Positions 38,359 to 38,755 of a stretch of DNA of 64,000 nucleotides are shown here, piece after piece (within the stretch, counting starts at the first letter, position 1; each line of letters begins with the position of its first letter). The notes beneath the pieces are model-generated. The model did not search any database, was not told the DNA's origin, and saw only the letters and a list, made by a program, of their open reading frames with translations. A program made the translations under genes and the position numbers. The stretch comes from the human T2T-CHM13v2.0 reference genome, Homo sapiens. The DNA lies in NCBI RefSeq assembly GCF_009914755.1, contig NC_060941.1. The stretch is one strand, 5' to 3'.

Positions 38359-38755
38359 TTAATGGAATGCTGGATTTTTCAAATTTCCTTAAAGCTGTGG
38401 CTGATGTTTCTTTTTTTTTTTTTTTTTTTTTTTTTGAGACGGAGTCTCGCTCTGTCGCCCAGGCTGGACTGCGGACTGCAGTGGCGCAATCTCGGCTCAC
38501 TGCAAGCTCCGCTTCCCGGGTTCACGCCATTCTCCTGCCTCAGCCTCCCGAGTAGCTGGGACTACAGGTGCCCGCCACCGCGCCCGGCTAATTTTTTGTA
38601 TTTTTAGTAGAGACGGGGTTTCACCTTGTTAGCCAGGATGGTCTCGATCTCTTGACCTCATGATCCACCCGCCTCGGCCTCCCAAAGTGCTGGGATTACA
38701 GGTGTGAGCCACCGTGCCCGGCCTGATGTTTCTTATTTGGTCTCTCAGAATCCAG
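38359..38755 (+). pseudogene. EFCAB13: Fossil 75-nt EFCAB13 exon ([25 protein letters not shown]) split by an Alu
   Basis: Acceptor atttttatag, donor CAG|GTAAAA. Segments 38359-38412 and 38735-38755 give 75 nt, open, phase 1 to 1. Confidence 0.85.
38413..38723 (-). mobile_element. AluYb-lineage element (Yb7/Yb8-like)
   Basis: 7-bp duplication ggactgcggactgc plus tcatgatccacc, caccttgtt, ccgcttccc, cgcaatctc; TSD tgatgtttctt at 38402-38412 and 38724-38734. Confidence 0.92.

What the first reader, a model, noticed from the sequence alone, without database searches (positions are those of the whole stretch)
38359..38755. Young AluYb insertion destroyed a coding exon that completed an EF-hand calcium loop
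Seen: removing the Alu and one TSD copy (tgatgtttctt) leaves a stop-free 75-nt exon with intact AG/GT signals and phase 1 to 1. Spliced after exon 36459-36602 it reads [20 protein letters not shown], a near-canonical EF-hand loop (D1, D3, N5, G6, hydrophobic 8; position 12 is N rather than E). Including the exon with the Alu gives 397 nt and a stop at 38553-38555. Skipping it keeps the frame but cuts the loop after DID. Established: the AluYb lineage expanded essentially in humans. The human protein as I recall it reads ...VDID|AFQD..., without this exon. Inference: a human-lineage retrotransposition removed half an EF-hand from EFCAB13. I cannot tell whether this has been published.
Basis: partly seen in the sequence, partly recalled or inferred. 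Interest (0 to 1): 0.92.

Follow-up and report, generated by a model that had tools for sequence, protein, structure and literature searches.

The report
Alu-split relic exon in EFCAB13
A young Alu jumping element sits inside what was once a small coding exon of the human EFCAB13 gene, so the protein now lacks half of one calcium-binding-type motif, but the gene is itself a decaying fragment of a larger ancestral gene, so the loss is probably of little consequence.

Summary
Window 38359-38755 is bounded by AG and GT. It contains a full-length minus-strand AluYb-type element at 38413-38723, with a 23-T tail and exact 11-12-nt target-site duplications. Removing 322 nt leaves a 75-nt, stop-free, phase 1-to-1 segment. 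With the Alu in place the segment is 397 nt and stops at 38553-38555.

New support comes from the gene's structure. EFCAB13 is built from repeated pairs of a 144-nt and a 72/75-nt phase-1 exon. Seven of the eight first-half exons have a partner, and only exon 9 (36459-36602) lacks one. The relic fills that gap and aligns in register with the seven paralogous units. It is the best of 52 candidate segments in intron 9, and 1 of 5000 shuffles reaches its profile score.

Three things are not shown. No ape DNA or full-length ape protein was reachable, so the insertion's human-lineage timing is untested. It also remains untested that the exon was still spliced when the Alu landed, and that the loop bound calcium. 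Its position 12 is N, against D or E in 7 of 7 paralogs.

The context lowers the stakes. EFCAB13 is the 5' remnant of an ancestral 188-exon gene, carries segregating truncating variants, and has an in-frame stop in this reference.

Verdict: a real feature, a new member of a known kind, of moderate interest.

The parts
36459..36602 (+). EFCAB13 exon 9, a 144-nt phase-1 first-half exon of repeat unit 1. It ends ...KTVDID plus one base.
   Evidence: RefSeq exon. Phase and translation. It is the only one of 8 first-half exons without a 72/75-nt partner.
38329..38358 (+). Pyrimidine-rich tract and AG acceptor of the relic exon.
   Evidence: Read directly.
38359..38412 (+). Left 54 nt of the relic exon, uninterrupted. 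After the junction codon (V) it reads [17 protein letters not shown]. Its last 11 nt are the left target-site duplication.
38402..38412 (.). Left copy of the target-site duplication.
   Evidence: It is 12 nt exact when the preceding C is included.
38413..38435 (-). Uninterrupted run of 23 T, which is the A-tail of the minus-strand Alu.
   Evidence: counted on the ruler.
38436..38723 (-). Body of a full-length (288-nt) AluYb-type element in antisense orientation to the gene.
   Evidence: Two Metazoa_SRP-like halves on the minus strand. Masked repeat. It is 96.9-98.6% identical to 20 of 20 sampled copies carrying the same motif.
38464..38487 (-). 24-mer containing the tandem 7-nt duplication that marks the Yb lineage.
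   Evidence: 103 exact copies and 2,015 copies with at most 1 mismatch in the genome; 0 for the reversed control. That this is the Yb hallmark is recalled.
38553..38555 (+). First in-frame stop (TAG) if the 397-nt segment were spliced in.
38724..38734 (.). Right copy of the target-site duplication.
38735..38755 (+). Right 21 nt of the relic exon, followed by the donor GTAAAA at 38756.
50032..50175 (+). Exon 10, the next first-half exon, to which exon 9 is spliced directly in the annotated mRNA.

Best explanation
The segment is the relic of a 75-nt phase-1 coding exon. It was the second-half partner of exon 9 in the 144+72/75-nt exon-pair repeat that builds EFCAB13.

A full-length AluYb element was inserted 54 nt into this exon, antisense to the gene. 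The A23 tail and the 11-12-nt target-site duplication indicate L1-driven target-primed reverse transcription.

The interrupted exon is 397 nt long, out of frame, and carries a stop at 38553. The mature mRNA therefore joins exon 9 directly to exon 10. Because the lost exon was 75 nt and phase 1-to-1, skipping it keeps the frame. The protein loses 25 residues: positions 4-12 of the second loop of unit 1 and its exiting helix.

Status of each step:
- Shown: the anatomy, the architecture and the current splice pattern.
- Inferred from the family's published copy numbers: the insertion happened after the split from chimpanzee.
- Inferred: the exon was still spliced until then, and the Alu is the cause of the skipping.
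- Inferred: the loss was tolerated because the gene was already a truncated remnant under relaxed constraint.
For: - Anatomy of the Alu, its duplication and its tail.
- Frame arithmetic.
- Architecture: 7 of 8 first-half exons have a partner and all introns are phase 1. The relic lies 1.76 kb downstream of the only orphan, exon 9.
- The relic aligns in register with the 7 paralogous units, with no internal gaps.
- Profile score: best of 52 candidates in intron 9 (9.5 against 1.8 bits), and 1 of 5000 shuffles reaches it.
- RefSeq joins 36602 to 50032.
- Yb family size: 2,015 motif copies in this genome. The literature figure is about 2,200 in human against nine in chimpanzee (PMC3298642, passage seen).
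- Relaxed constraint: the gene was split in the Homininae ancestor (preprint 10.1101/235838, passages seen). Five or more truncating variants segregate (PMC8256863 and PMC8762330, passages seen). This reference has a TAG at 63540-63542.
Against: - No cross-species evidence was obtained. The only ape protein reached (P0001, chimpanzee, 104 aa) skips exons 9 and 10 altogether. A search with the relic piece was blank.
- The Alu is not pristine. It has 4 private sites plus at least one minority state in 290 nt, which gives a rough age of 2-15 My. It could therefore predate the human-chimpanzee split.
- The paralog profile is weak on its own. The genome-piece search gave E 3.2, and one chance segment scored higher.
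- Pfam sees no EF-hand in exon 9 or in the relic piece.
- One RefSeq isoform (NR_189741.1) already skips exons 9 and 10, so this part of the gene is loosely spliced.
- Over a few million years an intact 75-nt frame is expected even without selection. Intactness therefore does not date the loss of use.
Confidence: 0.6

Rival explanations
1. Bystander Alu. The 75-nt exon had already dropped out of the mRNA before the Alu arrived, for example after the Homininae rearrangement relaxed constraint. The insertion then hit a dead exon.
For: - The gene has been a truncated remnant since the Homininae ancestor.
- Exons 9 and 10 are skipped in one RefSeq isoform.
- Loop position 12 is N, against D or E in 7 of 7 paralogs. 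This could be a post-inactivation change.
- Chimpanzee EFCAB13 also carries a high-impact deletion (PMC7140787, passages seen).
Against: Both splice sites and the frame are intact once the Alu is removed. No other lesion is visible in the 75 nt. However, this test has little power over less than 10 My.
Confidence: 0.2
2. The insertion is real but not specific to the human lineage. It is shared with one or more African apes, or it is still polymorphic in humans.
For: The rough age range of 2-15 My includes the split. Nine Yb8 copies are reported in chimpanzee. Nothing here tests presence or absence in other genomes.
Against: By the cited numbers, about 99.6% of Yb8 copies are human-only. The A-tail is long and uninterrupted. 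Four or five private changes argue against a very recent polymorphic insertion.
Confidence: 0.08
3. Chance. The 75-nt open segment with AG/GT ends is not a former exon at all.
For: 52 such segments exist in intron 9 alone and 944 in the gene region. One minus-strand chance segment scored 12 bits. Pfam gave no hit.
Against: The segment fills the only missing slot in the repeat, with the right order, length and phase. It has the best profile score in the intron by 7.7 bits, and 1 of 5000 shuffles reaches its score. Its junction with exon 9 continues the loop in the same register as all 7 paralogs.
Confidence: 0.03
4. The relic is not silent. The Alu-bearing segment, or part of it ending at a donor-like GT inside the antisense Alu, is still spliced into a fraction of transcripts. 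These then carry the stop at 38553 and are degraded, lowering EFCAB13 output.
For: The acceptor at 38358/38359 is intact. CAG|GT sites lie inside the Alu on the plus strand at 38566-38570 and 38700-38704. All of these sites lie downstream of the stop.
Against: No such exon appears in either RefSeq transcript. No RNA data were available here.
Confidence: 0.15

Closest known systems
Efcab3-like / EFCAB13-EFCAB3 split (Lilue et al., preprint 10.1101/235838; passages seen)
   Same: Same gene. It is described as repeated EF-hand domains, with the promoter-bearing 5' part becoming EFCAB13 after a rearrangement of about 15 Mb in the Homininae ancestor. The terminal human exon begins with an intact 72-nt second-half exon that is read through. 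This fits that model.
   Different: The passages I read say nothing about an Alu in an exon or about a missing second-half exon. This event is a later and much smaller lesion.
Exon skipping caused by Alu insertions into coding exons, and the human-specific CMAH exon loss. Both are recalled; no paper was read here.
   Same: A mobile element inside or replacing an exon removes it from the mRNA.
   Different: Here the skip preserves the frame. The host gene is dispensable-looking. The ancestral use of the exon is inferred, not observed.
Catalogue of about 15,000 human-specific mobile-element insertions (Tang et al. 2018, PMC6191304; passages seen)
   Same: AluYb8/9 is among the most active human-lineage subfamilies. 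That study classifies insertions by gene context.
   Different: The classification uses human annotation. An Alu that erased an ancestral exon counts there as intronic, so this kind of event is invisible to it.
Repair-mediated duplication of an exon in C17orf57 (PMC2671141; passages seen)
   Same: Another small structural event in the same gene affecting a second-half exon. I found the matching duplicate.
   Different: That event added an unused exon copy. This one interrupted an exon.

Membership tests
Alu retrotransposon insertion, AluYb lineage | Dimeric 7SL-derived body of about 280-290 nt | tested here: met
   Two Metazoa_SRP-like matches on the minus strand, with E 1.3e-12 and 7.6e-10. 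The body is 288 nt.
Alu retrotransposon insertion, AluYb lineage | 3' A-tail and flanking target-site duplication | tested here: met
   23 uninterrupted T on the plus strand. An 11-12-nt exact direct repeat with spacing 322.
Alu retrotransposon insertion, AluYb lineage | Tandem 7-nt duplication in the right arm (hallmark recalled) | tested here: met
   Visible at 38466-38479. The 24-mer around it occurs 2,015 times with at most 1 mismatch and 0 times in the reversed control. This is close to the roughly 2,200 copies cited in PMC3298642.
Alu retrotransposon insertion, AluYb lineage | Absent at the orthologous site in other apes (for 'human-specific') | not testable with these tools
   No ape genome is on hand, and the protein searches could not reach full-length ape proteins.
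EFCAB13 144+72/75 exon-pair unit (second-half exon) | Follows a 144-nt phase-1 exon; is itself 72 or 75 nt and phase 1-to-1 with AG/GT ends | tested here: met
   The segment is 75 nt, like exon 16.
EFCAB13 144+72/75 exon-pair unit (second-half exon) | Sequence similarity to the paralogous second-half exons | tested here: inconclusive
   For: in-register alignment; 9.5 bits and E 0.066 among 944 segments; best of 52 in intron 9; 1 of 5000 shuffles reaches the score. Against: E 3.2 in the unrestricted six-frame search, and one chance segment scored higher.
Canonical calcium-binding EF-hand loop | Ligand pattern at positions 1, 3 and 5, Gly at 6, hydrophobic at 8 (pattern recalled) | tested here: met
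   D1, D3, N5, G6 and L8 across the exon 9 / relic junction.
Canonical calcium-binding EF-hand loop | Acidic bidentate ligand (E or D) at position 12 | tested here: not met
   Position 12 is N, whereas 7 of 7 paralogous units have D or E.
Canonical calcium-binding EF-hand loop | Match to a Pfam EF-hand model | tested here: inconclusive
   Nine single-exon pieces were scanned. Exon 9, exon 10 and the relic piece matched 0 families. Three of the nine pieces gave EF-hand hits at E 0.16-0.21, far below the cut-offs. Whole units could not be submitted because joined sequence is not accepted.
Exon loss caused by a mobile-element insertion | The exon was included before the insertion and is skipped because of it | not testable with these tools
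   Only the present state is seen: RefSeq joins 36602 to 50032.

The most novel reading that the evidence does not exclude
A fixed, human-only AluYb insertion removed a still-used coding exon. Every human EFCAB13 protein would then differ from the chimpanzee and gorilla proteins by a 25-residue deletion that halves the best-preserved loop of its first EF-hand pair. The mouse counterpart of this gene alters brain size when knocked out. Human-annotation-based catalogues of lineage-specific insertions cannot see this class of event, an ancestral exon erased by an insertion, so more cases may be hidden in 'intronic' Alus.
Probability: 0.5. Interest if true: 0.5.

Novelty: new member of a known kind. 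Interest (0 to 1): 0.4.

Why it matters
If confirmed in apes, this would be a clean and datable example of a retrotransposon deleting protein sequence in the human lineage by killing an exon while keeping the frame. Few such cases are documented.

It also suggests a method. Exon-pair periodicity, or ortholog gene models, can reveal ancestral exons hidden under insertions that are currently classed as intronic.

The biological weight is limited. EFCAB13 is a truncated remnant of a larger gene, tolerates truncating variants in people, and is annotated as a transcribed pseudogene in this reference. The lost loop also lacks the acidic position 12.

Tried and rejected
1. Full-length orthologs. The longest stop-free exon piece (139 aa) returned 1 hit from 1 candidate, with 38 candidates of untold source left out. 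That hit is a chimpanzee partial isoform (P0001) that skips exons 9 and 10. The relic piece with region 1-40 found no candidate, with 7 left out. Only proteins of 43-136 aa could have matched, so the blank means little. I left the third search unused. No stop-free query longer than 139 aa exists, so proteins of about 1,000 aa or more are out of reach.

2. Atlas search with P0001: no usable hit.

3. Retrocopy as a fossil of the spliced mRNA.
- Exon 12 matches only itself in the genome.
- The left flank plus the left part of the relic matches only itself.
- Exon 9 has one extra 38-nt match on chr5. This turned out to be an unspliced genomic copy that ends 1 kb before the relic, so it is uninformative.

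4. Pfam on single exons: no significant EF-hand hit. Whole units could not be submitted.

5. Paralog profile on unrestricted six-frame pieces. The relic's left piece scored only 6.4-7.0 bits (E 3.2), about 16th in the list. I rejected this as a stand-alone test and replaced it with the splice-bounded enumeration and the shuffles.

6. EFCAB3 as a source of more units. It has only one 144+72 pair, so I did not pursue it.

7. Literature. Searches for 'EFCAB13'+'Alu', 'C17orf57'+'Alu', 'EFCAB13'+'exon'+'human-specific' and 'EFCAB13'+'chimpanzee' found no paper describing this insertion. The one polymorphic AluY mentioned lies near the promoter (PMC13648404, passage seen). Supplementary tables are closed and may list the locus.

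8. I did not try to match the TAG in this reference to any published variant.

Full report
**The observation**

The stretch 38359-38755 begins after a pyrimidine-rich tract ending in AG and is followed by GTAAAA. Inside it, exact copies of an 11-nt string lie at 38402-38412 and 38724-38734. The repeat finder reports 12 exact nt with a spacing of 322.

Between the copies lie 23 uninterrupted T (38413-38435) and a 288-nt body. The body matches the metazoan SRP RNA model twice on the minus strand, at 38434-38588 (52.6 bits, E 1.3e-12) and 38608-38722 (43 bits, E 7.6e-10). Both hits fall below the gathering score of 70, as expected for a 7SL-derived Alu dimer. The Alu-derived families mir-1268 and mir-3135 also match below threshold. 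RefSeq masks 38399-38729 as repeat.

Leaving out the Alu and one repeat copy gives 75 nt with no stop in phase 1. With the Alu the segment is 397 nt, and the first in-frame stop is TAG at 38553-38555.

**What the segment is**

I fetched the rest of the gene and translated the RefSeq exons. From exon 9 onwards EFCAB13 is built from a repeated pair of exons. Each pair is a 144-nt exon (138 nt in one case) followed by a 72- or 75-nt exon, and all flanking introns are phase 1.

- There are eight first-half exons: 9, 10, 13, 15, 17, 19, 22 and 24.
- Seven of them are followed by a second-half exon. For exon 24 the partner is the start of the terminal exon.
- Exon 9 (36459-36602) is the only one followed directly by another first-half exon.

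The Alu-bearing segment lies 1.76 kb downstream of exon 9, on the same strand. It has the length of exon 16 (75 nt) and the same phase.

Translated after exon 9, the relic aligns in register with the seven complete units. The only gaps are at the ends: two leading residues for the 138-nt exon and one trailing residue in five of the units. The 144-nt exons all end three residues into a loop, and the second-half exons continue that loop.

**Is it more than chance?**

A first test was weak. I built an 18-column profile of the seven paralogous second halves and searched all 7,125 six-frame pieces of the 132-kb region. The relic's left piece scored only 6.4-7.0 bits (E 3.2), about 16th in the list.

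I then enumerated every AG..GT-bounded, phase-1-open segment of 69, 72, 75 or 78 nt in an empty-site model. There are 540 on the plus strand and 404 on the minus strand, 52 of them in intron 9. Against a profile of the full second-half exons:

- The relic scores 9.5 bits (E 0.066 among the 944).
- Among segments not in the training set or overlapping it, it ranks behind an unannotated duplicate of exon 23 (22.4 bits) and one minus-strand chance segment (12.0 bits).
- Within intron 9 it is first, and the next candidate scores 1.8 bits. Of the 52 candidates, 33 received any score.
- One of 5000 shuffles of its peptide reaches 9.5 bits.

Taken with the slot it fills, I regard 'former second-half exon of unit 1' as about 95% likely.

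**The element**

The tandem 7-nt duplication at 38466-38479 is, from memory, the hallmark of the AluYb lineage. The 24-mer around it occurs in this genome:

- exactly, 103 times (59 forward and 44 reverse);
- with at most one mismatch, 2,015 times (974 and 1,041);
- for the reversed control, 0 times.

The tool states that such counts are lower bounds. The number agrees with the roughly 2,200 AluYb8 copies in human, against nine in chimpanzee, cited from Gibbons et al. 2004 in PMC3298642 (passage seen).

I fetched 20 of the 103 exact-motif copies. Their identity to this copy is 96.9-98.6%. The mean mismatch is 2.1%, of which 0.8% is not of CpG type. This copy differs from at least 18 of the 20 at four sites, three of them in a CpG-decay context. 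It also carries at least one further minority state inside the 24-mer (103 of 2,015).

With recalled substitution rates (0.15% per My, six-fold higher at CpG), five events in 290 nt give about 6 My, with a Poisson range of 2-15 My. So the long pure tail and the subfamily point to a post-chimpanzee insertion, but the copy's own divergence does not prove it.

**Present-day consequence**

RefSeq NR_189742.1 joins 36602 to 50032, and the reading is ...KTVDID|AFQD.... Skipping keeps the frame. It removes loop positions 4-12 and the following helix of the second motif of unit 1. NR_189741.1 skips exons 9 and 10 as well, and the only chimpanzee protein I could reach has that same structure.

**How canonical was the loop?**

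Across the junction the loop reads D1, I2, D3, V4, N5, G6, M7, L8, D9, F10, S11, N12.

- Positions 1, 3, 5, 6 and 8 fit the canonical pattern (recalled).
- Position 12 is N, whereas all 7 paralogous units have D or E there.
- None of the 7 paralogs has D at position 1.

This loop therefore had the best-preserved first half in the protein but lacked the usual bidentate ligand, so calcium binding is uncertain. In a Pfam scan of nine single-exon pieces, exon 9, exon 10 and the relic piece matched nothing. Only three of the nine pieces gave EF-hand hits, at E 0.16-0.21.

**Context**

According to passages of the preprint 10.1101/235838, echoed in PMC8662591:

- EFCAB13 and EFCAB3 are the two parts of an ancestral 188-exon gene, Efcab3-like (5,874 aa in mouse).
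- That gene was split by a rearrangement of about 15 Mb in the common ancestor of human, chimpanzee and gorilla. The rearrangement also deleted many internal repeats.
- EFCAB13 keeps the promoter.

In agreement, the terminal human exon starts with an intact AG..GT-bounded 72-nt second-half exon that is simply read through.

Human populations carry several stop-gain and splice variants of EFCAB13 at frequencies up to a few percent (PMC8762330 and PMC8256863, passages seen). A chimpanzee-specific high-impact deletion in the gene is also reported (PMC7140787, passages seen). This reference has an in-frame TAG at 63540-63542 in the 495-nt exon, which explains the label 'transcribed pseudogene'. 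The gene therefore looks weakly constrained, and a frame-preserving exon loss would be easily tolerated.

**What could not be done**

The protein word search only returns proteins of 0.55-1.75 times the query length. No stop-free piece longer than 139 aa exists, so proteins of about 1,000 aa (African apes) or about 5,000 aa (orangutan, macaque) were out of reach. The Atlas search gave nothing. A search for a retrocopy that might preserve the old splice pattern found none. Whole repeat units could not be sent to Pfam or to structure prediction, because joined sequence is not accepted.

**Novelty**

Four literature searches found no description of this insertion. The catalogue of human-specific insertions (PMC6191304, passages seen) assigns gene context from human annotation. 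It would therefore file this Alu as intronic.

The mechanism is a known kind: a mobile element in an exon, leading to loss of that exon. This would be a new instance. Its interest lies mainly in being a tidy example, and in showing that exon periodicity can expose erased exons.

**Verdict**

- The reading 'relic exon split by an AluYb' is well supported.
- 'Human lineage' is probable from the published family numbers.
- 'The Alu caused the loss' and 'calcium loop' remain inference.
- Interest is moderate (0.4).

Noticed in passing
window 63540-63542: There is an in-frame TAG in the 495-nt exon of EFCAB13 in this reference. It explains why RefSeq labels the gene a transcribed pseudogene on T2T-CHM13. 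Papers report several segregating stop-gain variants in the gene. I did not match this TAG to any of them.
   Followed up: partly
chr17:48279479-48279550 (L003:1479-1550), 1.9 kb downstream of exon 23: An unannotated 72-nt AG/GT-bounded open segment sits inside a 120-bp copy, 91.7% identical, of exon 23 and its splice sites. It probably corresponds to the duplicated C17orf57 exon attributed to repair-mediated duplication in PMC2671141, which found no evidence that it is transcribed.
   Followed up: partly
L028 (chr5:164218141-164220178), minus strand: An L1 3' fragment with an A-tail is followed by an 807-bp unspliced copy (98.6% identical) of window 36565-37365. That stretch covers the last 38 nt of exon 9 and the start of intron 9. 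A second A-tail follows just after an ATTAAA, and the whole insertion is flanked by a direct repeat of about 13 nt. It looks like an L1 3' transduction or a template switch onto an intronically polyadenylated EFCAB13 transcript. No L1 lies upstream of 36565 in the window.
   Followed up: partly
chr17:48303098-48303169 (L004:5098-5169), start of the terminal exon: The last EFCAB13 exon begins with an intact 72-nt second-half exon that still has a GT after it. The mRNA reads through it into former intron sequence and stops. This fits the view that the gene's 3' end was created by the Homininae rearrangement.
   Followed up: partly
window 33747 to 59087 (isoform NR_189741.1): One RefSeq isoform skips both first-half exons 9 and 10 and joins exon 8 to the orphaned second-half exon 11. 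The chimpanzee partial protein P0001 has the same join.
   Followed up: no
window 38539-38590 (-) and 38456-38522 (+): There are sub-threshold Rfam matches to mir-1268 (67.1 bits against a cut-off of 83) and to mir-3135 inside the Alu. These are expected for Alu-derived miRNA families and are not evidence of a miRNA gene here.
   Followed up: no
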